Assembly (NCBI GenBank): GCA_016191105.1
Contig: JACPPH010000008.1
Location: forward strand, 136,951 to 200,950
Reading direction: 5' to 3'
From: Candidatus Saccharimonadota bacterium
Lineage (GTDB): Bacteria; Patescibacteriota; Saccharimonadia; CAILAD01; BJGX01
Length of the DNA stretch: 64,000 nucleotides
Part shown: one piece after another, positions 26,442 to 63,536 of the stretch
How the letters are laid out: every line of letters starts with the position of its first letter
How positions within the stretch are numbered: the stretch's first letter is position 1
Program-made: the position numbers and the translations under genes
The notes under the pieces: generated by a model
What the model was told of the DNA's origin: nothing
Seen by the model: only the letters and a program-made list of their open reading frames with translations
Database searches by the model: none

Positions 26442-26621
26442 TTTTGTATTAGTGACGGACCACCTTATCAGATATCTAGTGACTGTAATTAAAAGCCCTT
26501 TGCAAAATCTTTAGAAACGACTATAGTGTAATTAGTTTTACAAAAGTATAGGTGGAATTTGGAAGAGCCAAGTTTGTTTATAATAATCTCTACCCATCTA
26601 GTTGGCGCAAACTGCCAACGA

Positions 26622-26649
26622 AACACTGAAGGCTGCAGCAAAAAAGCTG
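26622..26649 (+). terminator. Rho-independent terminator
   Basis: ggctgcagc-aaaaaa-gctgcag followed by tttttt. Confidence 0.45.
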
Positions 26650-26656
26650 CAGTTTT

Positions 26657-27682
26657 TTGTTTGGGACAAACACTATGAATGACTACATGTCCAAAAATAT
26701 ATCTGTTATAAAAAACTCTGGCAATCCTCAGAAAACTTGCCAAGAAGTATGCAGGTTGATATTCTCACACTACGAGCAGGGTCGGCTAAGTGCTGCCGAA
26801 GCGATGGTTTTGTTAAAAAGCAGCATAGTACAGTTAGATGATCGAAAAGAAGGCGGCTTTAGGTTTCTGTCTGTATGTAAAAAACCGGGCGCGATGCTAG
26901 CCATATTTGCACTAATAGGGGCACTACTAGGCGCGACTTTTACACTAAGTGGTGCATATAATTCAGCTCAAATTACCGTATTAATATTTAGCTGCTTCAT
27001 TAATTTGATATTAGGGGGTATGGTTTTTGCAAAAAATCCAAAGAGTCAATGTAACAAGATATTCTTTGCAACATCGATTGTACTGACAGGCTTTTTACTG
27101 ACCAATTTTATGTCTTTACACCCCCTAGCTTTAGCACAAATTACTTGGATAAGATTACAAATGGTGAGTGTAGTTAGCTTTGTATTAGGCTATTACCTCA
27201 TAATCTTGTTGTTTCCCAATAGGCTAATTACTCAATTGTCGCAATTCCAAAAAAGTGTCATTGGACTTTCACTCATATTAATAGGCTTGTGCTTAACACC
27301 AACGATTTTTGTTGCCACAACTCAAGCTCCCAATGCACGTCTTGGCAACTTATTCTTTTTAATACTTGTTCAACAATTTGGCTTAATAGTACTTACAATT
27401 TATGAAATATACAAGAAATCCAAGGTTGCCACAAAAACTAGAAAACTACAACTAGTCATAATAGCTGTTGGCATACTTTTTAGCTTTTTTGGTATCTTTG
27501 TATTCAACTTTATATTCGTTCAAGTACTGAATACTACTGCCTTCATCTACTTGAGTAATCTTGCCACTCTAGCCTTTACTGCTAGCTTTGCTTATGTAGT
27601 TTTTTACAAAAAAATGTTTGATAAGATACAGAGATTAAAAAAGTTATCAGGGCTAACCTGGATAACCGTGATTGGTGTTTGA
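26657..27682 (+). CDS. polytopic membrane protein of unknown function
   Basis: 341 aa with at least 7 predicted TM segments. Confidence 0.45.
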   Translation: MFGTNTMNDYMSKNISVIKNSGNPQKTCQEVCRLIFSHYEQGRLSAAEAMVLLKSSIVQLDDRKEGGFRFLSVCKKPGAMLAIFALIGALLGATFTLSGAYNSAQITVLIFSCFINLILGGMVFAKNPKSQCNKIFFATSIVLTGFLLTNFMSLHPLALAQITWIRLQMVSVVSFVLGYYLIILLFPNRLITQLSQFQKSVIGLSLILIGLCLTPTIFVATTQAPNARLGNLFFLILVQQFGLIVLTIYEIYKKSKVATKTRKLQLVIIAVGILFSFFGIFVFNFIFVQVLNTTAFIYLSNLATLAFTASFAYVVFYKKMFDKIQRLKKLSGLTWITVIGV

Positions 27683-27854
27683 TTATTTGCGAGCACATTC
27701 GCAATAAGCTGACTATGTTAGTTCTACCGCTGTTTTTGTAATAAATTTTATAGGTGAATCAAATATAATAAGAAAACCGAACCCATAATCCACACACATA
27801 ATCACTGGCTGCTGCTATCTATTGGCTAAGACCTAAAATAACTGGTAAACTTCT

Positions 27855-28328
27855 TTAGTCCCAGCTCCTAGATTGGTAAACTGCTATAACTAGAGAACAA
27901 ACAGGTTTGTGTTCACAGATTGTTCCAGAAACTGATAGTTTGATGGGGTGCCAGCTATGATCTGGGCGCCTTTTCATCATATCTGTTAAGGTCTTATAAA
28001 TATCTTTTTGAACCTCATCTTCACTGCTCCCAGTATGTTCTACAAACATACCCTGTTTAGTTTTTTTATCTAATACCCAACCTATACCCGCCCAAGCTTG
28101 TTTATTTGGGATAGTTTCACGTTTTTGAGCAATAACGCAGTAAAGTTTATGACCAAATTTGCCATTTTCTGGTTTTGGTTTGGATTGTATAATTTTTGAA
28201 CCAGCTGGAATAATCGAACTCAAGTAAATTAGATTATAGTTTGCAGCACCTGCTTCCTGTAGTGCAGTATCAAAGGCAGCTAAAGGAGTAGGTCCGCTGG
28301 CAGATGCCTTAACAACATGTATATCCAT
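27855..28328 (-). CDS. pdaD: pyruvoyl-dependent arginine decarboxylase
   Basis: ASGPTPLAAFDTALQEAGAANYNLIYLSSIIPAGS parallels the archaeal/bacterial PvlArgDC motif [31 protein letters not shown] (self-cleaving Ser-Ser). Confidence 0.65.
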   Translation of the reverse strand: MDIHVVKASASGPTPLAAFDTALQEAGAANYNLIYLSSIIPAGSKIIQSKPKPENGKFGHKLYCVIAQKRETIPNKQAWAGIGWVLDKKTKQGMFVEHTGSSEDEVQKDIYKTLTDMMKRRPDHSWHPIKLSVSGTICEHKPVCSLVIAVYQSRSWD

Positions 28329-28368
28329 AATAGATATTGTAAACTAAATTTAAAAGCATATATATATT

Positions 28369-28397
28369 GACAATCTAACTGAAATATAGTAGAATAG
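28369..28397 (+). promoter_or_regulatory. sigma70-like promoter TTGACA-N17-TAGAAT
   Basis: attgacaatctaactgaaatatagtagaat, immediately upstream of the higher-GC two-gene module. Confidence 0.45.
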
Positions 28398-28427
28398 AGA
28401 AAGTTCTTTTTACAGAAGGAACGATCC

Positions 28428-28967
28428 TTGAGAACGGGAGTAAACATGCAGAAATTGGAATCAAACAGCGATCATCTTGAGTTCCAGCTTCCGCTGGTGG
28501 TCAAGGTTTTCGTGTTCGTGATCCCACTTTGGATCATCAACGCGTATGCCACCCGATTAGGTCTCTGGCCCGTAGGAATTGCTCTCTCCGTAATCACGGC
28601 GAGTGCAATTATTTGGCAATGGCCGAAGATTGAACGTGGAATTGTCAAACTCCGCCACAAAGCAATCAACGACTACCACGTCAGTCCCAAGACTTTTGCT
28701 GTGCTTTACATCTTCAGTTTTGCGCCTTTCTATCTTGGCCTGTTCATGATGGCCGAAGGTGTCGTTCGTCAAAGTTGGGCGCTAGTTGCGCTAGGAGGAC
28801 TGATCAATCGGTTTTCGTATGCGCTTCCTTATCTCTACGTCATTTTCTGGGGGGATCTCACTGAAAAGGTAGGAATTTGGAAGATCAGGCTTAGACTAAA
28901 CGTCTTGGTGTGGGGTTGGATTGTCATTTCGGTGGCTTTCTTTGTCCTAACAAAGGTGCTCTCGTAG
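28428..28967 (+). CDS. membrane protein of unknown function (higher-GC module)
   Basis: 4 TM helices. Codon usage is richer in C-ending codons than neighbouring genes. Confidence 0.45.
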   Translation: MRTGVNMQKLESNSDHLEFQLPLVVKVFVFVIPLWIINAYATRLGLWPVGIALSVITASAIIWQWPKIERGIVKLRHKAINDYHVSPKTFAVLYIFSFAPFYLGLFMMAEGVVRQSWALVALGGLINRFSYALPYLYVIFWGDLTEKVGIWKIRLRLNVLVWGWIVISVAFFVLTKVLS

Positions 28968-28990
28968 CACCACCCCTTAAAGGAGTAAGT

Positions 28991-29536
28991 ATGTCGTCAT
29001 ACGTTAGCATGGAAAGTGGTTTCTCGGATGACGTGGTTGAATTGTTGTGGCCCTTGTATGACGAAGGCTTCAAAGACATCAACCTGCACAGTCCGTGCCG
29101 GCAATCGTTCAACTACGGCGAATTCGTTGCTGCGTTAAAGGACCCCAGGGTCTATAGGGCAGTACTACGAGATGACGAAAGCAACGAGATGCTCGCTGTG
29201 GCTGTATGGAGCAACAACTTCGATCACTTCCCTTGGCTTAGCGCGGAGTACTTCAAAGCGAGGTACCCCGAGGAGTTTGAGGCAGGCCGACTGTACTACA
29301 CAGTTGCAACCCTATCTCTCAACAAGCGAAGTGGGCACATGACAAAGATCATGCTTGAGATGACTCGACGAATCGCCGCGGAACGTGGCAGAATGTTGTT
29401 TGATCTCTGCGAAGAACTTGTCAACATAAATTGGCAAGTTGTCATCTTTGAAACAGCCAGCTCAGTGGTTGATGAACCACTAGAACTGGAAAACCTTGGA
29501 GTACAGCAATACTTCTCGGTTGGTTTCAAGAGTTGA
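28991..29536 (+). CDS. hypothetical cytoplasmic protein (higher-GC module)
   Basis: RBS AAAGGAG upstream of the ATG at 28991, 181 aa, no recognised motif. Confidence 0.45.
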   Translation: MSSYVSMESGFSDDVVELLWPLYDEGFKDINLHSPCRQSFNYGEFVAALKDPRVYRAVLRDDESNEMLAVAVWSNNFDHFPWLSAEYFKARYPEEFEAGRLYYTVATLSLNKRSGHMTKIMLEMTRRIAAERGRMLFDLCEELVNINWQVVIFETASSVVDEPLELENLGVQQYFSVGFKS

Positions 29537-29540
29537 CGCC

Positions 29541-29573
29541 AGGGGACCCTTAGGGGTCCCCTTCTCTTTTTGT
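29541..29573 (+). terminator. Rho-independent terminator
   Basis: aggggaccc-ttagg-ggtcccct plus ttctcttttt. Confidence 0.6.
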
Positions 29574-29592
29574 TATAATAACTACAAGTAGA

Positions 29593-31794
29593 ATGAAAAT
29601 TCAATTTTTTATCTATATTCCTACATTTCTGTTACTTTTTTTATTGGGGCTACTTGTTTATCTAAAAAACCACAAGACACGCTCCAACAAACTTTTTATA
29701 TTATTAGATGCCTCCATATTGTTTTGGTTGATACCTTCATTTGTGGCTGACATAGCCACAGACTCAATGATTTCGTTAAGAGCCCTTCAAATAGGGTATT
29801 TAATATCGCTCCTAATTCCTTATTTTTTTATATTGTTTTCATTAACTTTTTTATCTAATAAGAAACTGAACAAACTTACAGTAGGTTTACTTACACCGAC
29901 CCCAATTGTTTTATCTTTATTTTCATTTAGTGTACTAAACATTAATGAAGTCACGATTAGAAATTGGGGGGCAGAGGTTACAAAAAGTGGAATAATATAT
30001 TCAATTTCAGCTGCTTATTTCTTTGGGTACGCGTTACTAGCCTTGCTAGTGCTAATTAGAAAACAGAGAAAATCGAAAGGTAGTGAGAAGGACCAACTTA
30101 GGTTGATAATATATGGTACAGCATTCGCTGCCATTGCAAATGTAGCTACGAGTTATGTGTTTGTTCTATTTGGTAATTCACAATATGCAGTTTTATTTGG
30201 GATACCATCCTTTGTTATATTTGTAGGCTGTATAACCTATGCAATAGTAAGACATAAGCTATTTGACATAAGAGCTGTAATTGCCCGATCGGTTACATTT
30301 GTGCTGCTAATAACTACTATGGCTGGAGTTTATGGTGTAGTGGCTTTTCAGGTAATAAATGTAATACTAAAGGGGAGCTCTAACACTGCAAGACAGCTGG
30401 CCGATGTTCTGCTGGCTGTGGTGTTGGCTTTTACGTTTGGGCCGCTGCGGCGGTTCTTCGAGAAACTAACCGATAGGGTGTTTTATCGTGATCGCTACGA
30501 TCCACAAGTGTTGGTAAACAAAATAGGGCGCATTCTGGCCAGCGAAATTGATTTAGAAAAACTTTGCCGCAAGGTTATAAGTGAATTGACGGTCTCTATG
30601 CGTTTAAGTTTTACCGACATAGTAGTATTTGGCGAAAAGGAAGTTCATTTTCAAACTCGGGTGTTTTCGCCAGATCAGCACCACATATTAATTGCCGATC
30701 TAAAAAAGCTTGGCCGTTTAGCTGTGGTGCGTGATGAGTTAGCTACGGGCGAGCGAAAAGAGGTTATGGATAAATACGGGGTTAGCGCCAGTCTGGCCTT
30801 GCGAACCAGCGAGGAGTTTATAGGCTATCTTTTGTTGGGCGAAAAGAAGTCAGGTGACATATATAATGATCAAGATATTCAGATTCTTAAGATTATTGCT
30901 AATGAGCTATCGGTGGCCATACAAAATGCCAAAGCCTTTACTGAGATACAGTTATTCAATGCAACATTGCAAGAGAAGGTTCAACGTGCCACCAAAAATC
31001 TTCGTCATGCCAACGAACAGCTCAAAGAGCTAGATCAAGCCAAAGATGAGTTTATTAGCATGGCCAGCCATCAGTTGCGCACACCGCTAACTACCGTTAA
31101 GGGCTATGCCAGCATGTTAGCCGAGGGCGATTTTGGCAAGCTGAACAGCCAGCAAAAAGAGCCGGTGCAAGAGGCTCTAGACGGCGCTAGCCGTATGGCT
31201 CGACTAATTGACGATCTGCTGAATGTTAGCCGCATGGAGGCCGGCCGGTTCTTTATAGATGCTGTAAGTACCGACGTGGTTAAAATGACTCAGCAAGAAG
31301 TAGATCAACTGCAAAGCCTGGCCCAAGCCAAGAAGGTAGAGCTTGTGTACGAACCGCCCAAAACACCGCTCAAGCCAATTTTACTCGATGAAAACAAAAC
31401 CCGCCAGGTAATCATGAACCTGGTCGACAACGCCATTCACTATAGCCAGCCGCCGGCCGGCGGAGGGCATGTTCATGTTAAGTTAACCGCCGAAGGCAGC
31501 AACTTGGTGTTTACGGTGCAAGACGATGGCATTGGTGTGCCAAAAGAGCAGCAAGGCAGGCTTTTTCATAAGATGTTTAGAGCCGGAAATGCTAAAAATG
31601 TTCGGCCAGATGGCACAGGCCTTGGTTTGTACCTAGTTAAGCGGGTAGTCGAAGACCAGGGTGGCCAAATAATATTCCAAAGCGAAGAGGGTAAGGGTTC
31701 GCTATTCGGGTTCCGATTACCATTGAGCGGGGTTCCTCAAGAACTGTTGGGTAAGGCCAAAGAAATTGCCAAAACCGCCCACCTGACTGCTTAG
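29593..31794 (+). CDS. sensor histidine kinase (polytopic membrane sensor + GAF-like + HisKA + HATPase_c)
   Basis: About 7 N-terminal TM helices, H-box HQLRTPLTTVKGYASML, and N/G1/G2 boxes (NLVDNAIHYS, DDGIGVP, GTGLGL). Confidence 0.8.
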   Translation: MKIQFFIYIPTFLLLFLLGLLVYLKNHKTRSNKLFILLDASILFWLIPSFVADIATDSMISLRALQIGYLISLLIPYFFILFSLTFLSNKKLNKLTVGLLTPTPIVLSLFSFSVLNINEVTIRNWGAEVTKSGIIYSISAAYFFGYALLALLVLIRKQRKSKGSEKDQLRLIIYGTAFAAIANVATSYVFVLFGNSQYAVLFGIPSFVIFVGCITYAIVRHKLFDIRAVIARSVTFVLLITTMAGVYGVVAFQVINVILKGSSNTARQLADVLLAVVLAFTFGPLRRFFEKLTDRVFYRDRYDPQVLVNKIGRILASEIDLEKLCRKVISELTVSMRLSFTDIVVFGEKEVHFQTRVFSPDQHHILIADLKKLGRLAVVRDELATGERKEVMDKYGVSASLALRTSEEFIGYLLLGEKKSGDIYNDQDIQILKIIANELSVAIQNAKAFTEIQLFNATLQEKVQRATKNLRHANEQLKELDQAKDEFISMASHQLRTPLTTVKGYASMLAEGDFGKLNSQQKEPVQEALDGASRMARLIDDLLNVSRMEAGRFFIDAVSTDVVKMTQQEVDQLQSLAQAKKVELVYEPPKTPLKPILLDENKTRQVIMNLVDNAIHYSQPPAGGGHVHVKLTAEGSNLVFTVQDDGIGVPKEQQGRLFHKMFRAGNAKNVRPDGTGLGLYLVKRVVEDQGGQIIFQSEEGKGSLFGFRLPLSGVPQELLGKAKEIAKTAHLTA

Positions 31795-32696
31795 TTAAGA
31801 TTTGGCTCCAAAGTAAGTCTTATAGAGTAACCTTCACCATAGTTTGTATCGTAAGTCTTGTACCCCTTGGGAAATAGTTGCACTAACTGCTTATGCTCTA
31901 CTGCGATATTTTTTTGATGATCAGTATATTTAGCTAAGTACTCATCGTACAAAACCGGCGTAACAATAATCAATCTACCATTACTATTCAAAAGACTGTT
32001 AATTTTTTCTACAAACTCAGCTTTATCGTCGATGAATGCCAGTACTAAATTTACAGTTATTAAGTCAAACTTTTTCTTGCCAAAGTTATAGCTCATAAAG
32101 TCACCAACAATTCCGGCCGAATAATCACTTAAATCAATACCTGTAACTCTACAGCCCCTATCTTTGAGCTGCTTCATCAGTTCACCTTGGCCACAGCCAA
32201 TATCTAATACATCACCTCTAGGACTGATATCATCGAGTATGATTTCACTCACAGAAGCAAACTTCCGACCTTCTTTATATGCTTTATTCCAATCTAATTT
32301 TTTCATTGCAATTACCCCACAGATATGAGGGTCGGAATGGCCCTCGTACAACCCAGGGTCGTAGGCGATGCCGTGTTCGGCCATGAACATCCTTGTGTCG
32401 TCCGCTGGCCGTACCACATCGCCGTCCCGATCTGTCGGGTTGTGGTGCAAGAAGAAGCCGAAAGCGTCGCAGCAGTACTGCTGGTACTCGCGCGTGTAGA
32501 GGATGAAGGTGTGCCAACCGATGTCGACGAGCTGGGGTGAGCCGAGCCCCTCCTGACTCATGGCCGCGGCTCGCATGTAGATCAGCGTCTCGTCCATGAT
32601 GGCGCTAGCCATCTCGCACGAGAACTGATGCTCGCCCATCATGAGTTTGATGATCCGTTGGCGAGTCTCCTCGAGCGGGTGTATTGTGGTGTTCAC
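31791..32696 (-). CDS. two-domain protein: N-terminal unknown domain (high-GC DNA) fused to a class I SAM-dependent methyltransferase (AT-rich DNA)
   Basis: C-terminal half has VLDIGCGQGELMKQL (SAM motif I). An abrupt GC-content step occurs inside the ORF at about 32290. Confidence 0.55.
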   Translation of the reverse strand: MNTTIHPLEETRQRIIKLMMGEHQFSCEMASAIMDETLIYMRAAAMSQEGLGSPQLVDIGWHTFILYTREYQQYCCDAFGFFLHHNPTDRDGDVVRPADDTRMFMAEHGIAYDPGLYEGHSDPHICGVIAMKKLDWNKAYKEGRKFASVSEIILDDISPRGDVLDIGCGQGELMKQLKDRGCRVTGIDLSDYSAGIVGDFMSYNFGKKKFDLITVNLVLAFIDDKAEFVEKINSLLNSNGRLIIVTPVLYDEYLAKYTDHQKNIAVEHKQLVQLFPKGYKTYDTNYGEGYSIRLTLEPNLN

Positions 32697-32823
32697 TGGT
32701 AGGTCTTCTTTCGTTTATTTGGCTACCAGTTGCCCGCACTATATTCCTGGTTGTACTTATTGTCAAACATCGTTATAACGACAATTTGCAACTTCCGGCA
32801 GTAACTATTACCATAAGAACAAT

Positions 32824-33009
32824 ATGTCCCCACTAAAACTCATTGCCTTATTTGTACTAGTATTTTGTGTGAGTGCTTTCTTGTTGTTGCTAATTGTCAA
32901 AATAACACATTTTATTACCAAAGATCATACCAACAACTACTGGCTGGCAATTGCAGTCTTTTCAGCGCTGCTGGCGGCCATGGTTGTTTATACTAATTTA
33001 GGAAGATAA
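32824..33009 (+). CDS. small two-TM membrane protein
   Basis: 61-aa hydrophobic ORF ending 1 nt before pgk. Confidence 0.3.
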   Translation: MSPLKLIALFVLVFCVSAFLLLLIVKITHFITKDHTNNYWLAIAVFSALLAAMVVYTNLGR

Positions 33010-34194
33010 ATGGCGGTTGAGCTTATTACCCTAGACAAATTGTATCTTCGTGGCAAAAGAGTCTTTGTGCGGGTTGATTATAACGTAGTCGAAAACGGAA
33101 AGATTATCGATGACTTTCGAATCGAAGCTAGCCTAACAACCCTGCAGTATTTGTTAAAGCAAGACTGTGCGCTTGTGCTGGCGAGCCACAATGGTAGGCC
33201 AAATGGCAAACCAAATAAATCTCTGAGCCTTCAACCAGTGGCTCGGCGACTGGCGCAGCTTTTGCGCAGAGAGGTGGTTTTTATGCACGACTGCGTGGGT
33301 AAACAAGTAAAAGCAGAAGCTACTGCACTGCGAGCGGGCGACATAATGATGCTCGAAAACTTACGTTTTCACCCGGGCGAAGAGAAAGACTCGGCCGAAT
33401 TTGCCAAAGATCTGGCTAGTTTAGCCGAAGCCTATGTCGACGATGCTTTTGCCAACATCCATAGGGCTCATGCTAGCATGGTGGGAGTGCCCAAACTCTT
33501 GCCACATGCAGCTGGCAAACTGGTGGCTACCGAATACAAAACTCTACACCATATGCTAACCAAACCTACCCGTCCATTTACGGCCGTGATTGGTGGGGTT
33601 AAGGTGTCAGACAAAATCGATGTATTATATGGCCTATTAGACATAGTCGACAATCTGCTTATCGGTGGTGCTATGGCCAACACCTTTCTGGCAGCGGCTG
33701 GCAATAATATGCGCGCCAGTGTGGTTGAAAAAGATCACCTGCGCGACGCTAATTACATTGTCGAAAAAGCTAAACAAAAAGGTGTTAAGCTGTATCTACC
33801 AAAAGACTTGGTGGTAGCACATTCCATGCAGCGCGGGGCAGCTAAACACACGGTCGATGTTGGTTCGGTTCGAGATGGCGAAGCCGCCTACGATCTGGGA
33901 GATGCTACTATGAAGGGGTTTAGTAAAGTTATTAAAGTTAGCAAAACGGTTTTTTGGAACGGCACGCTAGGCATGGCCGAAATCCCCGACTTTGCAACTG
34001 CTAGTCAGCAGTTGGCGCGGGCTATGCTAAGCTCTGGCGCCGAAACAGTAGTGGGCGGGGGAGACACGGCAAGCTTTGTAGACGCCGAAAAACTGCACGA
34101 TAAATTCGACTTTGTTTCAACCGGCGGCGGGGCTACATTGGAGTTGATCGCGGGTAAAAAACTGCCGGCTCTCGAAATTCTGTTTAAGAAATAA
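33010..34194 (+). CDS. pgk: phosphoglycerate kinase
   Basis: KRVFVRVDYNV, ASHNGRP, GGGDT motifs; 394 aa. Confidence 0.9.
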   Translation: MAVELITLDKLYLRGKRVFVRVDYNVVENGKIIDDFRIEASLTTLQYLLKQDCALVLASHNGRPNGKPNKSLSLQPVARRLAQLLRREVVFMHDCVGKQVKAEATALRAGDIMMLENLRFHPGEEKDSAEFAKDLASLAEAYVDDAFANIHRAHASMVGVPKLLPHAAGKLVATEYKTLHHMLTKPTRPFTAVIGGVKVSDKIDVLYGLLDIVDNLLIGGAMANTFLAAAGNNMRASVVEKDHLRDANYIVEKAKQKGVKLYLPKDLVVAHSMQRGAAKHTVDVGSVRDGEAAYDLGDATMKGFSKVIKVSKTVFWNGTLGMAEIPDFATASQQLARAMLSSGAETVVGGGDTASFVDAEKLHDKFDFVSTGGGATLELIAGKKLPALEILFKK

Positions 34195-34216
34195 ACAATT
34201 CTGGCATAATAGGACT

Positions 34217-34678
34217 GTGCCAAATAACACAATCGAGCTAGTAAAAGAAGTTATCGCCGATTTAGAAGCAAATGGAGTTAATGTTTTGCTTGGCGGCGGT
34301 TGGGCCGAAGAACGGCTTGGTCTAAAGGCGCCGTGGGCGCATGGCGATATTGATCTTTACTACATCGCTCAAAACTTTAATCTGCTAGATAGCTACATAG
34401 CTAAGCGCAATCTTAAGCTACACAAAAACAAGCCCCACAAACGGGCATTCAAGGTGAATGGCGTGCAGGTAGAGGTTATTCTTATACAACAAGATGAGGG
34501 TGGATATTTCTCTACTTACCAAAATCATTCCGATGTTGTCGATAAAGTTACTATTAGATGGCCAGACAACATAAAAACTGCTTGTGATCTTGGTATTGAA
34601 CACTTGAGTCCGACAGCCCTAAGATTCAAACGCAAAGTTCATAGGCAACTTTTCCCAGAGTCAGAGCATAGGGCCTAA
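34217..34678 (+). CDS. ANT(2'')-like nucleotidyltransferase family protein (PF10706-like)
   Basis: VNVLLGGGWAEERLGLKAPWAHGDIDLYY parallels ANT(2'')-Ia LPLWIGGGWAIDARLGRVTRKHDDIDLTF. Confidence 0.6.
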   Translation: MPNNTIELVKEVIADLEANGVNVLLGGGWAEERLGLKAPWAHGDIDLYYIAQNFNLLDSYIAKRNLKLHKNKPHKRAFKVNGVQVEVILIQQDEGGYFSTYQNHSDVVDKVTIRWPDNIKTACDLGIEHLSPTALRFKRKVHRQLFPESEHRA

Positions 34679-34764
34679 GTTCTAATTGGCTTAATGCCAC
34701 CATGACTTACAATTACCGCCGGCCGGCCATGAACCATACCAATCCGCTCTATACGCAAACCGCA

Positions 34765-34795
34765 TTCGGCACAAAATGCATCTGTGCCGGTTTGT
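34765..34795 (+). terminator. putative terminator hairpin
   Basis: cggcaca-aaatgcatc-tgtgccg followed by gtttg. Confidence 0.35.
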
Positions 34796-34928
34796 AGATT
34801 ACTTACCCAACTCTATCGCTACCAATTTCATTTAAATAGCACCTTATAAGGACTCCTGATTTGGCTTTGCTGGTACTTGCCAAAAGGCAGATGACCGTTC
34901 TTGCACCTTACCTCGATAACTTTTTGCT

Positions 34929-36041: not shown

Positions 36042-36091
36042 AGTTTAACAAGATAACATACGAACAAAAGTAAAACAACTTAATAGCTTAA

Positions 36092-37378: not shown

Positions 37379-37479
37379 AAGATAGCTGTATGCTAAATTA
37401 TAGCATAAGCAGTAAGAAGAATTCTATGCGAAAGGGGCCCGTACAGGACCCCTAATCGCTCCTCATGGCGAACGACTAC

Positions 37480-37803
37480 CTAGCTGGCATCGTCATGTTC
37501 GTGTCCGAACCGCCGCTCATACGATCGCGCGCTTGGCTTGTGGTAGTGCCGCGTGTGAGTATTGCGCACGAAGCCTGTAACCTCTGGCTCCACCGAACTT
37601 GGTTTTGCACCGGTCTGCTCCCAGTCGTTGCCCGTTGCCAGATCCAGCATTGAGGCCACAGATTGTCTGCCCGTAGGCAGATATTGGCCAACACGCCGTG
37701 GATCTTGTGTGGCACAACCGGCTGACTGGCTACTTCTTCTGAGGAGCAGAACCCCGAGACCAGCTGCTCCAGCCCCGAGGATCACTTTGGTACGAAGTCG
37801 CAT
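37480..37803 (-). CDS. small signal-peptide protein encoded in a high-GC patch
   Basis: Strong RBS GGGAGG 8 nt upstream of the ATG at 37803, N-terminal hydrophobic signal. GC is far above local background, and several overlapping alternative-frame ORFs are typical of high-GC DNA. Confidence 0.35.
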   Translation of the reverse strand: MRLRTKVILGAGAAGLGVLLLRRSSQSAGCATQDPRRVGQYLPTGRQSVASMLDLATGNDWEQTGAKPSSVEPEVTGFVRNTHTRHYHKPSARSYERRFGHEHDDAS

Positions 37804-37880
37804 TACTAATACCTCCCTGTAGGCCGAAAATGCGATGCCGGCATTTTAACTTATATTTATCTGTTAATCAAAAAACCACC

Positions 37881-39745: not shown

Positions 39746-40114
39746 CTAGGCGCCAGTTGGCGGCCGGCCGTTGCATTCGGCCGGAAGCCAAGCCCCGCCA
39801 TCGGCTCTGATACCTTGCGGGTTCAGTGACAAGATGGCCTGGGCTACCACTTGTTCGGGCAGCTCCTTGAAGTGCTGCCGAGCCAGCAACGTGGCGTTAC
39901 CGTTGCTGGTAGTTATCTTTACGGCTGCGGGCCAACGACCCTTGCAGCTCACGTAGTCACGCGAGCCGCCCAGGTTTTGGCCGATTGTGGCCAAGAACCA
40001 GATAGTGGTCGCCACCACCACCACCGCTGCCGCTGAGATGAACAGCATGCGAGCATATGCTCGCAGGTTCATCTGCTCTACGTGTGTCTCTTCAACAGTG
40101 TTCGACTTCGGCAT
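39746..40114 (-). CDS. small membrane-anchored protein encoded in a high-GC patch
   Basis: Start MPKSNTVEET at 40114 with RBS AGGAAAGAGGAAGG. One TM helix; very GC-rich. Confidence 0.4.
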   Translation of the reverse strand: MPKSNTVEETHVEQMNLRAYARMLFISAAAVVVVATTIWFLATIGQNLGGSRDYVSCKGRWPAAVKITTSNGNATLLARQHFKELPEQVVAQAILSLNPQGIRADGGAWLPAECNGRPPTGA

Positions 40115-40394
40115 CGCCTTCCTCTTTCCTCTCGTTCGTCGAAAAAAATTTGGTGCAAATGGGATTATATTATAGCACAAGAGCCGCTATCAGTCAACCT
40201 TTCGTAAACCTGAATCACGAAATATTTTCACCCTGTGTTTGCACATAAGCCTAAACAGTGGCAATATTGATCAGACTTTTTATGGCGGTTTGACAAATTT
40301 TAACAGGCAAGAAGTTAGTTTTTGTGATTCACATTCAAACCAACACCCATAGCAAGCATTGGCAGTTTAGGCCACCAGCCGCTACAATATAAGA

Positions 40395-43820: not shown

Positions 43821-44276
43821 ATGGATGTCGAAAAAGTAATCCGCGACTACCTGCCAGATGTTATACACATGTTGCTCGGAACCTGTGCTGGCAACAAACC
43901 ATGGGTCTGCGAAGTTCACTTTGTTTATGACAATGACTTAAATTTATATTGGCGATCGCTAACTTCTCGTAGACACAGCCGTGAAATTGACTCTAATCCT
44001 AAGGTCGCCGGCAATATCGTACGCCAGCATACATTAGATGATTATCCCCATGGCATTTACTTTGAGGGCAGGGCTGAAAAGATTGACGTTGAAGCCGAAC
44101 GCAACAAGGCCTTTCCACTATTCCAAAAGCGATTAAATTGTGACGAAGGTATTTTAGAAGAAGCCAAACGCGAAGATGGCCACCAGTTTTATAAGGTAAA
44201 TGTTGATAGTTGGTATGCTTTTGGAAAGTTTGGCGGCTATAAAGGCCAAAAGTTTGAGCTCAAGTGGGGTAAATGA
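43821..44276 (+). CDS. pyridoxamine 5'-phosphate oxidase-like FMN-binding protein
   Basis: 151 aa with a PNPOx-like split-barrel pattern (GTCAGNKPWVCEVHFVYD). Confidence 0.5.
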   Translation: MDVEKVIRDYLPDVIHMLLGTCAGNKPWVCEVHFVYDNDLNLYWRSLTSRRHSREIDSNPKVAGNIVRQHTLDDYPHGIYFEGRAEKIDVEAERNKAFPLFQKRLNCDEGILEEAKREDGHQFYKVNVDSWYAFGKFGGYKGQKFELKWGK

Positions 44277-44749
44277 AAACCCTAGAAATTATCGGCCTAA
44301 TAGCACTGAGCCTACTGGTTTTACTATTCGTAGCTTTTTTATTGGTGCGAGCCTACTATGGTTGGCGCACTAGCCAGATGCCAGAGCACAGTCAGTTTGC
44401 GAGTGGGACAGCTCCAACCGAGCTGCCAAACGGCAGCTACAAAGGCACAGCCACAGTTTCGCAAGGCAGCTGGCAGGGTAAGAAGTTCGATTCTGCAACG
44501 GCCGCTGGAATTAATGTGTTTGCCGAAGGTGATAAGTACGAGTTTAAGATGTCGAGCGCCAAAGGCTTAACTGACCCCGACAAGCAAGTACTGAAGATCG
44601 ACTATAACCTGCCAAGCAACCCGTGGTGGCTACGCTTGGTGGTAGATGAAGTGGTGCAGACTGGGCCAAATGAACTACTTGGCAAGATCCAAATTAACGC
44701 TATCCCGTCGCTGCCATTTACGGTCGGCTACTTTAAGCTTCAGAAATAA
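44273..44749 (+). CDS. hypothetical membrane-anchored protein
   Basis: N-terminal TM helix, 158 aa. Confidence 0.4.
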   Translation: MKTLEIIGLIALSLLVLLFVAFLLVRAYYGWRTSQMPEHSQFASGTAPTELPNGSYKGTATVSQGSWQGKKFDSATAAGINVFAEGDKYEFKMSSAKGLTDPDKQVLKIDYNLPSNPWWLRLVVDEVVQTGPNELLGKIQINAIPSLPFTVGYFKLQK

Positions 44750-44777: not shown

Positions 44778-45262
44778 CAACCCGGCCACAAGCGGTCCCA
44801 CCAGTGGGGCAACTCACAGGTTCGACTGCGGTTCTCGGGTGCCCATTGGGTTAAGTGCCGGTGTGCCTCGGTGCCTGTCCTACACAGGGGCGGGAAAAGC
44901 CGGTAGACTGGCTCGAGCGAGCTCCTGAGCTTGTAGGGCAACAGTGGTAGTGGAACTGCAAAGACAGCCAGGACTAGGGCTTAGAAACAGCCCCGGTTGA
45001 AAGAGTGCGTAACAGCTCACTGGTCGAGTGGTTCTGCGCCACAAAACGCAAGTGGTATGTTTCGGCGATGTCGGCCGCCGCGTGCCGACTTTAAGGGCCT
45101 CTGGCCTATCACATACCCACTCCGACCCTGGCGTTCGCGCTAAGGCGGGGCAAAGGTGGTTTCTCGAGCCGAACTAGAGACTCCACCAACCCCTCGATCG
45201 TATCGAGGTGCCATCCGGAAGGGTGGGCGGGGATTAAAGCATGTCCCCGTCCACTCGCTGGG
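44778..45262 (+). ncRNA. 23S rRNA domain II-like RNA (helices ~41-46 / L10-L11-binding GTPase-associated-centre region) as an isolated ~480-nt non-coding segment
   Basis: Co-linear blocks match conserved 23S sequence, e.g. ACAGCCAGGACTAGGGCTTAGAAACAGCC...AAAGAGTGCGTAACAGCTCACTGGTCGAGTGGTTCTGCGCC vs E. coli ACAGCCAGGATGTTGGCTTAGAAGCAGCC...AAAGAAAGCGTAATAGCTCACTGGTCGAGTCGGCCTGCGCG. Also AACCCGGCCACAAGCGGTCCC, GGTTAAGTG, CTAAGGCGGGGCAAAGG blocks. Extended -10 TGcTAAAAT at 44764-44772 and a terminator-like hairpin/T-run at 45224-45269. No ORFs. Confidence 0.45.
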
Positions 45263-45318: not shown

Positions 45319-47487
45319 ATGCAACAGATTCTGGAATCTCTAAATGAATCGCAAAAGCAGGCCGTGCTGGCCACCGAAGGGCCAGTATTAATGCTGGCTG
45401 GTGCTGGCAGTGGTAAAACCAAAACCCTTACGCACCGCATAGCCTACCTGATTGCTGAGCGCAAAATTCCGGCCGCCAACATTTTGGCGGTTACGTTTAC
45501 CAACAAAGCCGCTGGCGAAATGCGCCGACGGGTGGCGCGGATTCTGCACTTTCACGAAGACAATATGAACTATCTGCCCTTCCTTGGCACCTTCCACTCC
45601 ATTGCCAACAAGATTTTGCGGCGCGAGGCGACCCACATTGGCTACCCTAGTAACTTTTTAATCTACGACACCAACGACTCTCAGGCGCTCATTAAGCACC
45701 TTATTAAACAACACCGCATCGACGAAAAAACTATTACTGCTAACGCTGTGGGGCACATGATAAGCAGCGCCAAAAATGAACTGCTCGATCCAAACCAATA
45801 CGCCAACTTTGCCGTCGGTCGCTTGCAAGAGGCCGCGGCCAAAATTTACCCTGATTATCAAAAAGAGTTGCGTAAGGCCCAGGCTATGGACTTTGATGAT
45901 CTTATAATGCAGTTAGTTAAGTTGTTCCAAACTGAGGCCGAGGTGTTAAAAAAATACCAAAGCCAGTTTCAGTACATATTGGTCGATGAGTATCAGGATA
46001 CCAACAACGCTCAGTACACACTCATTCACTTACTGGCGCGTGAGCACAGCAATGTTTGTGTAGTTGGTGACGACTGGCAGAGCATATACAGCTGGCGCGG
46101 TGCCAATTACGAAAACATCCTTAATTTTGAGCGTGATTATCCGACCGCTAAGATTGTAAAACTCGAGCAAAACTATCGCTCTACTCAGACCATACTAGAT
46201 GCTGCCCACGCGGTGATATCTAAAAACACTGCCCGCAGCGAAAAAGAGCTCTGGACCGAAGCCGGCAGTGGAGCTAAGATCCAGCTCGTGAGTGTGCGCG
46301 ATGAGCTCGAAGAGGGCCGGTTTATAGTGCAAACTATTCAGAGCGCTATCGAGCACGACCCACGGCTTAGTCGGCATGACTTTGCGGTGCTGTACCGTAC
46401 TAACGCTCAGTCACGCGCCTTGGAAGAGTCATTTCTGCGCTACAACGTGCCATACCAGATCGTCGGTGGAGTACGGTTTTATGAACGCAAAGAGATCAAA
46501 GATACCTTAGCTTACTTGCGCTTTGTATTTCAGCCCAACGACCAGATTAGTTTACGCCGCGTAATCAACGTGCCTCCGCGCGGCCTGGGCGAGCGCAGCT
46601 TACAAACATTTTTCGATTATACGGCTCGGTTTGAACTTAACTTGCTCGAGGCCATGGCCAACGCCACAGAGATTGAAGGGCTAACACCTAAGGCGGCCAA
46701 AGCTTTCACTGAGTTTGCCGCCACCATCAAAGAGCTTCAGGTAAAACAAGAGACTCTGCCCTTGAGCGTGCTGGTTGAGACAGTATTAAAAACCACTGGC
46801 TACCTTAAGTATCTAGACGACGGCAACATCATCTCGGCCGACCGCATTGAGAACCTCCAAGAGTTTATAGGCGTAGCCAAGAGCTTCGACAATGCTGGCT
46901 TGGAGGCCTTTCTAACAGAAATCACATTAATTTCTGACCTCGATGGCCTCAAAGAAAGCCAAGACGCCGTAACCTTGATGACTCTACATTCGGCTAAAGG
47001 GCTGGAGTTCGACACCGTCTTTATGGCCGGTATGGAGGAGGCTATATTCCCGCACTCTCGAGCCATGTTTGAGGCTGTGGAGCTCGAAGAGGAGCGCCGC
47101 CTATGCTACGTGGGCATGACTCGCGCCAAGAGCAAGCTTTATATGATTCATGCCAATGCTCGTATGTTGTATGGACGCACTCAGCACAACGTGCCCTCGC
47201 GCTTTTTGAGCGACATCCCAGCCGAGCTGGTGGAATCAACCTCACCGACTGGCACCCTTGGCCAGCTGCTACAGCGACAAACACTGTCTGATCCATCGAG
47301 CGGTGACAGCTTCGACGATGAGCCGTTTGTCAATCTGCCTAAGCTTAGCCCGGGTGATGAGGTAGAGCACGATGCCTTTGGCCGCGGCATCGTTAAGAGT
47401 CTCGATGACAGTGAAGTTGTAGTAAGCTTCTACCGAGCCGGCGTAAAAACCCTAAACTTAGGCTTTGCACCATTGAGAAAAGTATGA
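45319..47487 (+). CDS. pcrA: ATP-dependent DNA helicase PcrA/UvrD
   Basis: LNESQKQAV, GAGSGKT (Walker A), VDEYQDTN, and UvrD-C motifs; 722 aa. Confidence 0.9.
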   Translation: MQQILESLNESQKQAVLATEGPVLMLAGAGSGKTKTLTHRIAYLIAERKIPAANILAVTFTNKAAGEMRRRVARILHFHEDNMNYLPFLGTFHSIANKILRREATHIGYPSNFLIYDTNDSQALIKHLIKQHRIDEKTITANAVGHMISSAKNELLDPNQYANFAVGRLQEAAAKIYPDYQKELRKAQAMDFDDLIMQLVKLFQTEAEVLKKYQSQFQYILVDEYQDTNNAQYTLIHLLAREHSNVCVVGDDWQSIYSWRGANYENILNFERDYPTAKIVKLEQNYRSTQTILDAAHAVISKNTARSEKELWTEAGSGAKIQLVSVRDELEEGRFIVQTIQSAIEHDPRLSRHDFAVLYRTNAQSRALEESFLRYNVPYQIVGGVRFYERKEIKDTLAYLRFVFQPNDQISLRRVINVPPRGLGERSLQTFFDYTARFELNLLEAMANATEIEGLTPKAAKAFTEFAATIKELQVKQETLPLSVLVETVLKTTGYLKYLDDGNIISADRIENLQEFIGVAKSFDNAGLEAFLTEITLISDLDGLKESQDAVTLMTLHSAKGLEFDTVFMAGMEEAIFPHSRAMFEAVELEEERRLCYVGMTRAKSKLYMIHANARMLYGRTQHNVPSRFLSDIPAELVESTSPTGTLGQLLQRQTLSDPSSGDSFDDEPFVNLPKLSPGDEVEHDAFGRGIVKSLDDSEVVVSFYRAGVKTLNLGFAPLRKV

Positions 47488-63281: not shown

Positions 63282-63536
63282 TCAGACTCCGATTTGGCTC
63301 GGGTTGTCGGGTTGTTTGCGTTTCTTGAGTATTCGCCGTCGTTGGCGTTCGCTGGTAGCGCCCCACACGCCGTGATCGAGATGGTGCTCGAGTGCATACT
63401 CAAGGCACGGATCCTTGACCGGGCAGGTGGCACAGACGCGCTTGGCGATCTCCACCCCCACTCCATCGCTGGGAAAAAATTTTGCGGGTGGCTCGAACCG
63501 GCACGCGCCGCGAGCCATCCAATCGTCATCGCGCAT
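63282..63536 (-). CDS. WhiB-like (Wbl) Fe-S transcription factor (high-GC region)
   Basis: Four Cys (C-x22-C-x2-C-x5-C: ...GACRFEP...CATCPVKDPC) and G(V/I)WGG-like turn GVWGATSERQRRR; 84 aa. Confidence 0.7.
   Translation of the reverse strand: MRDDDWMARGACRFEPPAKFFPSDGVGVEIAKRVCATCPVKDPCLEYALEHHLDHGVWGATSERQRRRILKKRKQPDNPSQIGV

What the first reader, a model, noticed from the sequence alone, without database searches (positions are those of the whole stretch)
31791..32696. Single ORF with an abrupt GC-content step: high-GC N-terminal domain fused to an AT-rich SAM methyltransferase domain
Codons for residues about 1-135 (nt approx. 32290-32696) are strikingly GC-rich (runs like gccgtcccgatctgtcgggttgtggtgcaagaagaagccgaaagcgtcgc). 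The methyltransferase half (nt 31791-32290, VLDIGCGQGELMKQL) has the genome's usual AT-rich composition. This suggests a recent in-frame domain acquisition from a high-GC donor, plausibly an actinobacterial host if the organism is an epibiont, or a chimeric assembly.
Basis: partly seen in the sequence, partly recalled or inferred. Interest (0 to 1): 0.6.

Follow-up and report, generated by a model that had tools for sequence, protein, structure and literature searches.

The report
Two neighbouring genes fused by deletion
The sharp GC step is real, but it marks the seam where a deletion fused two neighbouring genes of a Saccharibacteria genome: a GC-rich gene of actinobacterial type and an AT-rich methyltransferase that lie side by side, with the same GC contrast, in many relatives.

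Summary
The GC step is real. Inside ORF 31791..32696(-), GC falls from 0.60 (GC3 0.83) to 0.35 (GC3 0.33) at nt 32315, about 9 nt before the methyltransferase's own ATG. It is the largest step in the window.

It is neither a domain captured in frame from a high-GC donor nor an assembly chimera. In 15 other low-GC loci (Saccharibacteria and other Patescibacteria, phage-like contigs) the two halves are adjacent separate genes. The first is a UCP032817-like gene (PF27765) with a Cys/Gly-rich tail. A hairpin spacer follows, then a ~170-aa class I SAM methyltransferase. In all 19 low-GC loci the first gene is GC-rich (+0.07 to +0.21 over its flanks), and in the loci profiled the GC-rich block matches the ORF; the methyltransferase is near or below flank GC.

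Here the tail, stop codon and hairpin were lost, giving the only fused protein among 1.84 billion representatives. PF27765 is mainly actinobacterial, so an ultimate actinobacterial origin is plausible. The nearest relatives, however, are low-GC copies (54-61% identity), and actinobacterial copies reach at most 48%.

Synonymous changes show net GC-to-AT decay, which fits slow amelioration. GC3 above 0.9 in some lineages and excess mRNA structure leave selection for GC-richness open.

The parts
32738..32766 (-). Promoter-like element TTGACA-17 nt-TATAGT upstream of the fused ORF
   Evidence: It matches 11 of 12 consensus positions and is the only promoter-like site found in 31500-33100. The same TTGACAATA...TAT box arrangement lies upstream of the UCP genes of phage-like contigs L006 and L098.
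32696..32729 (-). 5'-UTR hairpin CTGGTAG-N20-CTACCAG. The purine-rich, Shine-Dalgarno-like stretch lies in the loop and the 3' arm ends on the G of the GTG start codon.
   Evidence: Coordinates were checked. The stem is present in the minimum-free-energy fold. L006 and L098 have an equivalent CTGGT...ACCAG stem, and L002 and L013 have CTACC...GGTAG. Function is inferred, not tested.
32340..32696 (-). Codons 1-119: UCP032817-like (PF27765) helical domain, GC 0.60, GC3 0.83
   Evidence: 91 homologues, all carrying PF27765. The invariant residues L56-V57-D58-I59-G60-W61-H62-T63-F64, L66-Y67-T68, E70-Y71, C75, H84-H85 and P87 are all present. The AlphaFold2 model has pLDDT 88.4 and shows six helices. 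The GTG start and N-terminus VNTTIHPL match VNQTITPL, VNITVTPL and VNSTITPL in L006, L098 and L104.
32307..32339 (-). Codons 120-130 (GHSDPHICGVIA): remnant of the Cys/Gly-rich tail plus the deletion junction. The GC change point is at 32315.
   Evidence: The alignment places GH-SDPHICG against the CVGHGGPNCG tail motif of relatives, and everything after it is missing. In relatives this position is followed by 15-110 more tail residues, a stop codon and a 54-123-nt spacer with a GC-rich hairpin. Change point.
31794..32306 (-). Codons 131-301: complete class I SAM-dependent methyltransferase that keeps its own ATG, GC 0.36, GC3 0.33
   Evidence: Methyltransf_23 scores 62 bits against a cutoff of 27, and Methyltransf_11 scores 53.6 against 21.2. 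It is 55-63% identical along its length to stand-alone 168-171-aa proteins P0093-P0097. Its MKKLDWNKAYKEG aligns with their N-termini, MKIDWNKYYKEG.
31791..31794 (.). Four-base overlap between the 3' end of the fused ORF and the 3' end of the convergent HisKA_7TM histidine kinase gene (29593..31794 +)
   Evidence: The same kinase family lies next to the intact two-gene module in Saccharibacteria loci L002 and L003, in the opposite relative orientation, and a few kb away in L097.

Best explanation
The ORF is a gene fusion specific to this lineage. It was made from a conserved two-gene module of Patescibacteria and their phage-like elements.

Gene 1 of the module encodes a UCP032817-like helical domain followed by a variable Cys/Gly-rich tail. 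Gene 2 encodes a small class I SAM methyltransferase. A GC-rich hairpin spacer normally separates them.

In this Saccharibacteria genome a deletion or illegitimate recombination removed most of the tail, the stop codon and the hairpin spacer. The UCP domain therefore reads in frame into the intact methyltransferase, driven from the UCP gene's own promoter.

The GC step is the old boundary between the two genes. Gene 1 is of actinobacterial type: it is GC-rich at synonymous sites and is being ameliorated slowly and incompletely. Gene 2 is AT-rich.

Shown here: the module, the fusion, the composition pattern and the direction of synonymous change. Inferred: that the UCP domain works together with the transferase (a methyltransferase here, usually an APH-family kinase in Actinobacteria) as its partner, regulator or substrate, and that the fusion protein is made and active.
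For: 1. The two halves are separate adjacent genes elsewhere.
- UCP followed by MTase occurs in Saccharibacteria chromosomes L002/L003, L013, L097, L015, L019, L025, L029, L038 and L056, in other low-GC loci (L051, L075), in phage-like contigs L006-8, L098 and L099, which carry HNH, CHAP, NinG or terminase genes, and in L100, which carries a phage scaffold gene.
- That is an MTase next to UCP in 16 of 19 distinct low-GC loci, counting the window's own fused copy, plus a truncated MTase remnant in L104.

2. The same GC contrast is seen everywhere.
- The UCP gene is +0.066 to +0.21 GC above its flanks in all 19 low-GC loci, with GC3 of 0.53-0.96.
- The MTase has GC 0.27-0.54, near or below its flanks.
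- In the 11 relatives profiled at 60-nt resolution the GC-rich block coincides with the UCP ORF and the upstream spacer is AT-rich.

3. The fusion is derived and unique.
- Among 1.84 billion representative proteins only P0092, identical to the window protein, spans both domains. The apparent exception P0136 is an out-of-frame extension through a GC-rich UCP gene.
- The tail, stop codon and 54-123-nt hairpin spacer seen in relatives are absent here.
- The change point at 32315 lies 9 nt before the MTase ATG.

4. It is not an assembly artefact. L001 matches the window at 100% over 12.9 kb.

5. An actinobacterial origin for gene 1 is plausible.
- 69 of the 80 best genome loci are Actinobacteria, and there the gene's GC is close to its flanks (-0.12 to +0.055).
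- RSCU correlates at r=0.71 with actinobacterial genes.

6. Amelioration is in progress. Parsimony-polarised synonymous changes are mostly GC-to-AT: 6-7 vs 0-1 in the window copy, 16 vs 0 in L015, 12 vs 1 in L013, 7 vs 0 in L019. GC3 forms a continuum from 0.53 to 0.96.

7. The modules travel together but get reshuffled.
- UCP and MTase pairwise identities correlate at r=0.74 over 120 pairs.
- Yet the window's MTase is closest to the L002/L100/L102 type (55-58%), while its UCP and promoter are closest to the L104/L006/L098 type (58-61%, against 35-47% for L100 and L002).

8. The partner enzyme varies. In Actinobacteria the downstream gene is usually an APH phosphotransferase (PF01636, 27.9-44.4 bits against a cutoff of 23.2) and sometimes a methyltransferase.
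Against: - No reads were available, so the junction rests on assemblies, and the Logan and NCBI assemblies may derive from the same data.
- Nothing shows that the fusion protein is made. A weak GGGG 8 nt upstream of the internal ATG could allow the methyltransferase to be translated separately, and the upstream SD-like sequence is degenerate (AAGAAGA).
- Simple amelioration does not explain everything. No low-GC copy is more than 64% identical to any sampled high-GC copy, and clade A copies are at most 48% identical. Even so, some copies keep GC3 of 0.91-0.96 (L038, L056), while the fourfold sites of their linked MTases are saturated.
- Pooled GC-to-AT changes outnumber G<->C changes by only about 2:1. 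For comparison, the unpolarised S<->W to S<->S ratio in a neighbouring kinase gene is about 9:1.
- Low-GC UCP coding sequences fold more stably than synonymous shuffles, whereas actinobacterial ones do not.
- The neighbour-joining tree is crude and does not root the family.
Confidence: 0.8

Rival explanations
1. The GC-richness of the UCP gene in low-GC genomes is actively maintained and is not merely an un-ameliorated leftover. Candidate causes are selection for a stable, structured mRNA, selection for a particular translation rate, or GC-biased repair at a recombination hot spot. Under this reading the step would be a functional property of the module, and the fusion would simply expose it inside one ORF.
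For: - All 19 low-GC copies are GC-rich, and in the 11 relatives profiled the GC-rich block follows the ORF borders while the co-inherited promoter region is AT-rich.
- Clade A has only low-GC members and is at most 48% identical to any sampled high-GC copy.
- L038 and L056 keep GC3 of 0.91-0.96 while the fourfold sites of their MTases are saturated (excess identity 0.36 vs -0.06).
- All 16 low-GC UCP coding sequences fold more stably than synonymous-codon shuffles, with mean z -2.5. Local shuffles give -1.6 and S/W-preserving controls give -1.7. Actinobacterial UCP genes give +0.3, +0.2 and +1.3, and the adjacent MTases give -0.65.
- The block from the kinase gene to the response regulator is replaced between near-identical genomes, so recombination is frequent there.
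Against: - Polarised synonymous changes are overwhelmingly GC-to-AT in most lineages, so the genes are not at compositional equilibrium.
- GC3 ranges continuously from 0.53 to 0.96 rather than sitting at a set point.
- In the L002/L013 pair, my reading of the counts is that the per-site GC-to-AT rate in UCP is similar to that of the neighbouring kinase gene.
- No strongly conserved consensus RNA structure appears in clade A (alifold z -1.3).
- The z-score effect per gene is modest.
- The better-preserved synonymous sites of UCP can equally be explained by more recent exchange of the UCP module.
Confidence: 0.2
2. One reading: a high-GC (actinobacterial host) DNA segment was recently inserted in frame upstream of a resident methyltransferase, creating a new two-domain protein.
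For: - The N-half has actinobacterial-like codon usage and GC3 of 0.83.
- The family is mainly actinobacterial.
- The window holds another GC-rich actinobacterial-type gene, a WhiB homologue.
- The window's UCP and MTase modules have different nearest relatives, so the UCP module may have been brought in by recombination.
Against: - The nearest relatives of the N-half lie in low-GC Saccharibacteria and phage-like contigs, already next to an AT-rich MTase and behind the same AT-rich promoter and hairpin.
- The best actinobacterial identity is 48% over 81 residues.
- The GC-rich block starts exactly at the start codon.
- A tail remnant shows that a complete UCP gene once stood here.
Confidence: 0.05
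3. The join is an artefact: a chimeric or collapsed assembly, or a sequencing error that removed a stop codon.
For: The window comes from a metagenome-assembled genome, and no read-level data were available.
Against: - A separate Logan assembly gives the identical 12,937 bp.
- What is missing relative to relatives is well over 100 bp of tail, stop codon and spacer, not a single base.
- Both flanks are syntenic with related Saccharibacteria loci, including the HisKA_7TM kinase and PvlArgDC genes.
- The GC contrast itself is present in many independent assemblies.
Confidence: 0.03
4. The ORF is a decaying remnant. The UCP part is a dead, truncated gene that happens to be in frame, and only the methyltransferase is made, from its own ATG at 32306.
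For: - The module decays in other ways elsewhere. L104 has a truncated MTase, and in L102 the UCP gene is replaced by a TIR-like fragment that keeps only the tail end GCCSGQCS.
- The Cys/Gly tail, the nearly invariant W117 and the response-regulator neighbour are lost here.
- The SD-like sequence before the GTG is weak, and a GGGG lies 8 nt before the internal ATG.
Against: - All invariant core residues of the UCP domain are intact over 119 codons with no stop or frameshift.
- A near-consensus promoter is retained.
- The strong SD of the MTase seen in relatives (AAAGGA or AGGAG) was removed by the deletion, so MTase expression now most likely depends on read-through from the UCP start.
Confidence: 0.15

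Closest known systems
Unfused UCP032817-like + small SAM methyltransferase gene pair of Saccharibacteria (for example GCA_964570715.1 contig CAZMYX010000002.1 = L003, and JAXLZU010000001.1 = L013)
   Same: Both halves are homologous (UCP 45%, MTase 57% identity). The GC-rich/AT-rich contrast is the same, and a HisKA_7TM histidine kinase lies next door.
   Different: There the pair consists of two genes separated by a 54-nt hairpin spacer. The UCP protein keeps an ~80-aa Cys/Gly-rich tail, a response regulator follows, and the module has the opposite orientation relative to the kinase.
Phage-like contigs carrying the same pair as an own-promoter insert (L006-L008, L098, L099)
   Same: These hold close relatives of the window's UCP half (52-59%). 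L006 and L098 share its promoter, 5'-UTR hairpin and GTG start, and all show the GC contrast.
   Different: The genes are separate and the tail is long. The setting is viral (HNH, CHAP, Gp10_C, NinG, terminase genes), and their MTase is less similar to the window's (37-48%).
Actinobacterial 'glycine-rich domain-containing protein' (PF27765) followed by an APH-family phosphotransferase (Amycolatopsis, Micromonospora, Actinoplanes, Kitasatospora, Streptosporangium and others)
   Same: The conserved core LVDIGWHTFILYTREY..C....G.FIHH.P.D and a short Cys-rich tail are shared. It is also the first gene of a pair whose second gene is a group-transfer enzyme.
   Different: The gene's GC is close to the genome's. 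The partner is usually a kinase rather than a methyltransferase (L077, L095 and L068 are the exceptions). Identity to the window copy is only 31-48%.
Compositional islands from horizontal transfer and their amelioration (Lawrence and Ochman model; from general knowledge)
   Same: Base composition and codon usage are atypical and resemble a donor lineage, and there is a net drift of synonymous sites toward the recipient's composition.
   Different: The anomaly is limited to one ORF, is shared by a whole set of diverged low-GC copies, and has no close donor sequence. Decay appears slower than in the linked gene in several lineages.
Rosetta-stone gene fusions (Marcotte/Enright concept; from general knowledge)
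   Same: Two proteins that are separate and adjacent in many genomes appear as one polypeptide in one genome, which suggests that they act together.
   Different: Only one instance is known. It lost part of one partner (the tail), and its expression is untested.

Membership tests
Class I SAM-dependent methyltransferase (Pfam Methyltransf_23/11/25 clan) | Profile match above the curated cutoff | tested here: met
   PF13489 scores 62 bits (cutoff 27), PF08241 53.6 (21.2) and PF13649 43 (27), over residues 155-262. No NCBIfam equivalog reaches its cutoff, so no specific substrate can be assigned.
Class I SAM-dependent methyltransferase (Pfam Methyltransf_23/11/25 clan) | Glycine-rich SAM-binding motif I, an acidic residue after strand 2, and full domain length | tested here: met
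   The sequence shows VLDIGCGQG (motif I) and GIDLS. Residues 131-301 align end to end with stand-alone 168-171-aa homologues.
PF27765 UCP032817-like (NCBI: 'glycine-rich domain-containing protein') | Profile match to the family | tested here: met
   The precomputed Pfam annotation of the identical protein P0092 lists PF27765, and all 91 homologues of residues 1-133 carry it. The local Pfam copy lacks this model, so there was no direct hmmscan hit.
PF27765 UCP032817-like (NCBI: 'glycine-rich domain-containing protein') | Invariant core LVDIGWHTF-LYT-EY, C75, HH-P | tested here: met
   All 16 columns that are invariant across 83 sequences are present in the window protein.
PF27765 UCP032817-like (NCBI: 'glycine-rich domain-containing protein') | C-terminal Cys/Gly-rich tail | tested here: not met
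   Only GHSDPHICG remains. The nearly invariant tail cysteines and W117 are missing or changed.
Gene fusion of adjacent genes (Rosetta-stone type) | The components are encoded as separate neighbouring genes in other genomes | tested here: met
   15 other low-GC loci have UCP followed by MTase as two genes.
Gene fusion of adjacent genes (Rosetta-stone type) | One uninterrupted reading frame across both parts, produced as one polypeptide | tested here: inconclusive
   The frame is open from 32696 to 31794. Production of the fusion protein cannot be tested with these tools.
Horizontally acquired gene (compositional plus phylogenetic criteria) | Composition and codon usage deviate from the host genome and resemble the putative donor | tested here: met
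   GC3 is 0.83 against 0.458 +/- 0.079. RSCU correlates at r=0.71 with actinobacterial genes and 0.01 with the window's own genes.
Horizontally acquired gene (compositional plus phylogenetic criteria) | The gene nests inside the donor clade in a phylogeny | tested here: inconclusive
   In the neighbour-joining tree the low-GC copies form three clades. Clades B and C each include or adjoin a high-GC sequence (L040, L068), whereas clade A, which holds the window copy, has none. The root is unknown.
GRDP-like / DUF1399 (PF07173) | Profile match | tested here: not met
   There is no PF07173 hit for the window protein at E<=1, and none for any of 83 family members at E<=10. Any resemblance of the W-H...Y..C...HH motif is from memory only.
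Known anti-phage defence or phage protein families (PADLOC, PHROGs) | Profile match of the UCP part | tested here: not met
   UCP proteins give no hits. The MTase gives only generic SAM-fold matches.

The most novel reading that the evidence does not exclude
Across Patescibacteria and their phage-like elements, the UCP032817-like gene is held GC-rich and structured at the RNA level by selection or biased repair. This happens inside genomes of 34-51% GC, next to an AT-rich partner gene, and through long divergence. That would make it a rare case of a protein-coding gene whose nucleotide composition, and not only its protein, is under long-term constraint. It would probably be tied to how this host-derived, frequently exchanged module is expressed or exchanged between epibionts and phages. 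The window's fusion would then be a natural experiment that places the constrained and unconstrained segments in one ORF.
Probability: 0.2. Interest if true: 0.75.

Novelty: new member of a known kind. Interest (0 to 1): 0.45.

Why it matters
- It replaces a striking but misleading picture, a host domain spliced in frame, with a documented one. A conserved and so far undescribed two-gene module (UCP032817-like protein plus a transferase) is shared by Saccharibacteria, other Patescibacteria and phage-like contigs, and is related to an actinobacterial module.
- The family-wide GC contrast bears on gene flow from actinobacterial hosts to their epibionts. It provides a clean data set for asking how fast foreign genes lose their donor composition in reduced genomes, and whether something slows that loss.

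Tried and rejected
- Overlapping or antisense gene as the cause of the high GC3. Stop-free runs in the other five frames are no longer than in synonymous shuffles (P >= 0.08), so this was rejected.
- Known structured RNA in the region. Rfam finds nothing at 31.7-32.8 kb.
- Conserved RNA structure. The alifold z-score against codon-column shuffles is only -1.3 in clade A and -4.25 in the less diverged clade C, which is not convincing. An earlier version of the script timed out.
- GenBank phages. Only two weak partial hits were found, so deposited phage genomes give no support for actinophage carriage. The IMG/VR high-GC hits L089-L096 exist but may be prophage regions.
- Literature. Nothing was found on UCP032817, on GC-rich host-derived genes in Saccharibacteria, or on WhiB in Saccharibacteria genomes.
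- Structure of the whole fusion. The mixed alignment A3 was misaligned, with UCP sequences laid over the MTase part, so no prediction was run.
- Other fused proteins. The candidates turned out to be either tandem UCP-UCP proteins (P0124, P0126, P0184, P0217) or a gene-calling artefact (P0136).
- Amino-acid composition as the cause. The N-half has an ordinary GARP/FYMINK content, so the excess GC is synonymous.

Full report
**1. The observation**

ORF 31791..32696 on the minus strand encodes 301 residues from a GTG start. The 5' part, nt 32330-32696, has GC 0.599, and codons 1-122 have GC3 0.83. The 3' part, nt 31791-32329, has GC 0.358, and codons 123-301 have GC3 0.33.

The window averages 0.461 GC, with sd 0.049 for 360-nt windows. 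The largest step between adjacent windows anywhere in the 64 kb falls at ~32320. A two-segment likelihood fit places the change after ORF nt 382, which is window nt 32315, with support interval 32307-32339 and LLR 26.6.

Among 63 ORF-called genes, GC3 is 0.458 +/- 0.079. The N-half has the highest 120-codon GC3 in the window. Its relative synonymous codon usage correlates at r=0.71 with actinobacterial genes and r=0.01 with the window's own genes. Its amino-acid composition is ordinary, so the excess GC is synonymous.

The methyltransferase half is about 2 sd more AT-rich than the genome and is not 'usual'.

**2. What the two halves are**

Residues 155-262 match class I SAM methyltransferase profiles well above their cutoffs. 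No NCBIfam equivalog fits.

Residues 1-~119 have no hit in the local Pfam copy. Their 91 homologues all carry PF27765 (UCP032817-like), and NCBI names some of them 'glycine-rich domain-containing protein'. The core LVDIGWHTFILYTREY..C....G.F.HH.P.D is invariant or nearly so across 83 sequences, and the window protein has all of it.

**3. The halves are two neighbouring genes elsewhere**

A full-length search found only one two-domain protein, P0092, which is identical to the window's. Every other hit covers one half only: UCP proteins of 137-225 aa or methyltransferases of 167-171 aa. An exhaustive scan of 1.84 billion representatives gave the same answer. The longer candidates are tandem UCP-UCP proteins or a gene-calling artefact.

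Genomic contexts show the UCP gene directly followed by the methyltransferase gene in several settings:
- Saccharibacteria chromosomes L002/L003, L013, L097, L015, L019, L025, L029, L038 and L056.
- Other low-GC loci, L051 and L075.
- Phage-like contigs L006-8, L098 and L099, which carry HNH, CHAP, Gp10_C, NinG or terminase genes, and L100, which carries a phage scaffold gene.

The spacer is 54-123 nt long and holds a GC-rich hairpin, in some loci followed by a T-run.

**4. The GC contrast is a property of the module**

In all 19 distinct low-GC loci (flanks 0.34-0.51 GC) the UCP gene exceeds its flanks by +0.066 to +0.21 GC, with GC3 of 0.53-0.96. The methyltransferase has GC 0.27-0.54, near or below its flanks. 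In the 11 relatives profiled at 60-nt resolution, the GC-rich block begins at the UCP start codon and ends at or just after its stop, and the upstream spacer is AT-rich.

In 77 high-GC loci (Actinobacteria and high-GC viral contigs) the gene's GC is close to that of its flanks, from -0.12 to +0.055.

**5. How the fusion arose**

The window protein aligns with relatives up to ...YDPxL(W/Y) and then keeps only GHSDPHICG, which corresponds to the CVGHGGPNCG tail motif. VIA follows, and then the methyltransferase's own Met in MKKLDWNKAYKEG. The rest of the tail, the stop codon, the hairpin and the strong SD of the methyltransferase are gone. The GC change point lies 9 nt before that ATG.

Upstream there is a near-consensus promoter, TTGACA-17-TATAGT, at 32766..32738. 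There is also a 5'-UTR hairpin that ends on the GTG. Promoter, hairpin and GTG start are shared with phage-like contigs L006 and L098.

The window's methyltransferase is closest to the L002/L100/L102 type (55-58% identity). Its UCP part is closest to the L104/L006/L098 type (58-61%), against 35-47% to the UCP of L100 and L002. The modules therefore have different histories. The join may be a recombination junction rather than a simple internal deletion.

Module turnover is general:
- L100 pairs a similar methyltransferase with a very different UCP.
- L104 keeps the UCP gene but only a stub of the methyltransferase.
- L102 has a TIR-like fragment that ends in the UCP tail motif, placed ahead of the hairpin and the methyltransferase.
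- Two Saccharibacteria genomes differ by 3-5% at fourfold sites in the fmt and def genes. They differ by 30-54% in the genes compared within the block from the kinase gene to the response regulator.

**6. Artefact?**

A Logan assembly of SRR12113392 matches window 24974-37910 at 100% over 12,937 bp. The missing segment is well over 100 bp, not a single base. The flanks are syntenic with related loci. I could not inspect reads.

**7. Where the GC-rich gene came from**

The window is from a Candidatus Saccharibacteria MAG. Of the 80 best loci in GTDB species genomes, 69 are Actinobacteria (Amycolatopsis, Micromonospora, Actinoplanes, Kitasatospora, Streptosporangium and others) and 11 are Patescibacteria or low-GC MAGs.

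A rough neighbour-joining tree groups the low-GC copies into three clades with long internal branches. The window's clade has no sampled high-GC member. Its best actinobacterial match is 48%, and no low-GC copy exceeds 64% identity to a high-GC copy. An ultimate actinobacterial origin is therefore plausible. A recent direct import into this genome is not.

**8. Decay or maintenance?**

Evidence for decay:
- Parsimony-polarised synonymous changes on terminal branches are mostly GC-to-AT: 6-7 vs 0-1 in the window copy, 16 vs 0 in L015, 12 vs 1 in L013, 7 vs 0 in L019.
- GC3 forms a continuum across the low-GC copies.

Evidence that decay is not the whole story:
- L038 and L056 keep GC3 of 0.91-0.96 although the fourfold sites of their linked methyltransferases are saturated.
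- GC-to-AT changes outnumber G<->C changes by only about 2:1. The unpolarised S<->W to S<->S ratio in a neighbouring kinase gene is about 9:1.
- All 16 low-GC UCP coding sequences fold more stably than synonymous shuffles, with mean z -2.5. Stricter controls give -1.6 to -1.7. Actinobacterial copies do not show this (+0.2 to +1.3), and the methyltransferases barely do (-0.65).
- A conserved consensus structure is not convincing, and an overlapping ORF is excluded.

I rate slow amelioration with frequent module exchange as most likely, and active maintenance at about 0.2.

**9. Function (inferred)**

In Actinobacteria the gene after UCP is usually an APH-family phosphotransferase (PF01636 above its cutoff). 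Sometimes it is a methyltransferase. In Patescibacteria it is the small methyltransferase.

The UCP protein is thus the constant first member of a pair whose second member is a group-transfer enzyme. The fusion suggests that the two act together, with UCP as partner, regulator or substrate. The invariant His and Cys residues suggest a metal or redox site. None of this was tested.

**10. Verdict**

The feature is a new, unique fusion within a known kind of event: fusion of adjacent genes, one of them horizontally derived. The more interesting residue is the family-wide GC-richness of the UCP gene in low-GC genomes.

Noticed in passing
window 63282..63536 (-), with 62363..~63130 (-): An 84-aa WhiB-family transcription factor (PF02467, E 4.7e-21). 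This family is usually regarded as a hallmark of Actinobacteria and actinophages. It has GC 0.60 and lies next to a GC-rich (0.56, GC3 0.73) CDP-alcohol phosphatidyltransferase. NCBI annotates it as WhiB of a Candidatus Saccharibacteria bacterium. Homologues at 74-85% identity include Actinobacteria and Acidimicrobiales MAGs. It is a second GC-rich gene of actinobacterial type in the same window.
   Followed up: partly
window 44946..45045 (+): An isolated 100-nt match to bacterial 23S rRNA positions 1071-1170 (the region I recall as the GTPase-associated centre, where L10/L11 bind), at 76-82 bits and E 1e-22. It sits in a 570-nt gap between ORF 44273..44749 and ORF 45319..47487, whose N-terminus reads like a UvrD/PcrA-type helicase (not profile-tested). 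It is not part of an rRNA operon. It may be an rRNA mimic or a gene fragment.
   Followed up: partly
window 32696..32766 (-); L006 ~5230-5300; L098 ~6095-6165: A near-consensus promoter plus a short 5'-UTR hairpin with the SD-like purines in its loop and its 3' arm abutting the GTG start. The arrangement is conserved between this chromosome and phage-like contigs. It may be a translational control element of the UCP gene.
   Followed up: partly
L003 3694-7639 vs L013 2691-6560: Two Saccharibacteria genomes that are nearly identical in fmt and def (97-99% aa identity, 3-5% fourfold differences) differ by 30-54% at fourfold sites in the genes compared within the block from the histidine kinase gene to the response regulator. 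The block behaves as a swapped, hypervariable island.
   Followed up: partly
L102 4623-4886, L104 4477-4677, L100 4421-5513: Other states of the module. In L102 a weak TIR-like fragment (E 0.005, below cutoff) ends in the UCP tail motif GCCSGQCS and sits ahead of the hairpin and the MTase. In L104 the UCP gene closest to the window's is followed by only a stub of the MTase. In L100 a similar MTase (58%) is paired with a UCP only ~36% identical to the window's.
   Followed up: partly
Actinobacterial loci, for example L041 5496-6377, L050 5434-6333, L037 5471-6265: In many actinobacterial loci the UCP032817-like gene is directly followed by a ~265-300-aa APH-family phosphotransferase. HTH_31/DUF5753, DUF397 and HTH-TPR regulators recur nearby. 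L077 and L095 have a class I methyltransferase in place of the kinase.
   Followed up: partly
L068 4923-6070 (Kibdelosporangium banguiense): This is the only sampled actinobacterium with the patescibacterial-type UCP+MTase pair. Both genes (GC 0.54 and 0.51) lie below their flanks (0.61), and the UCP groups with Saccharimonadales copies. It may be a back-transfer from an epibiont or phage to an actinobacterium.
   Followed up: no
window 39746..40180 (-) and 37480..37803 (-): Two further GC-rich ORFs (GC 0.57 and 0.58 against a window mean of 0.46) with no Pfam match. They were not examined further.
   Followed up: no
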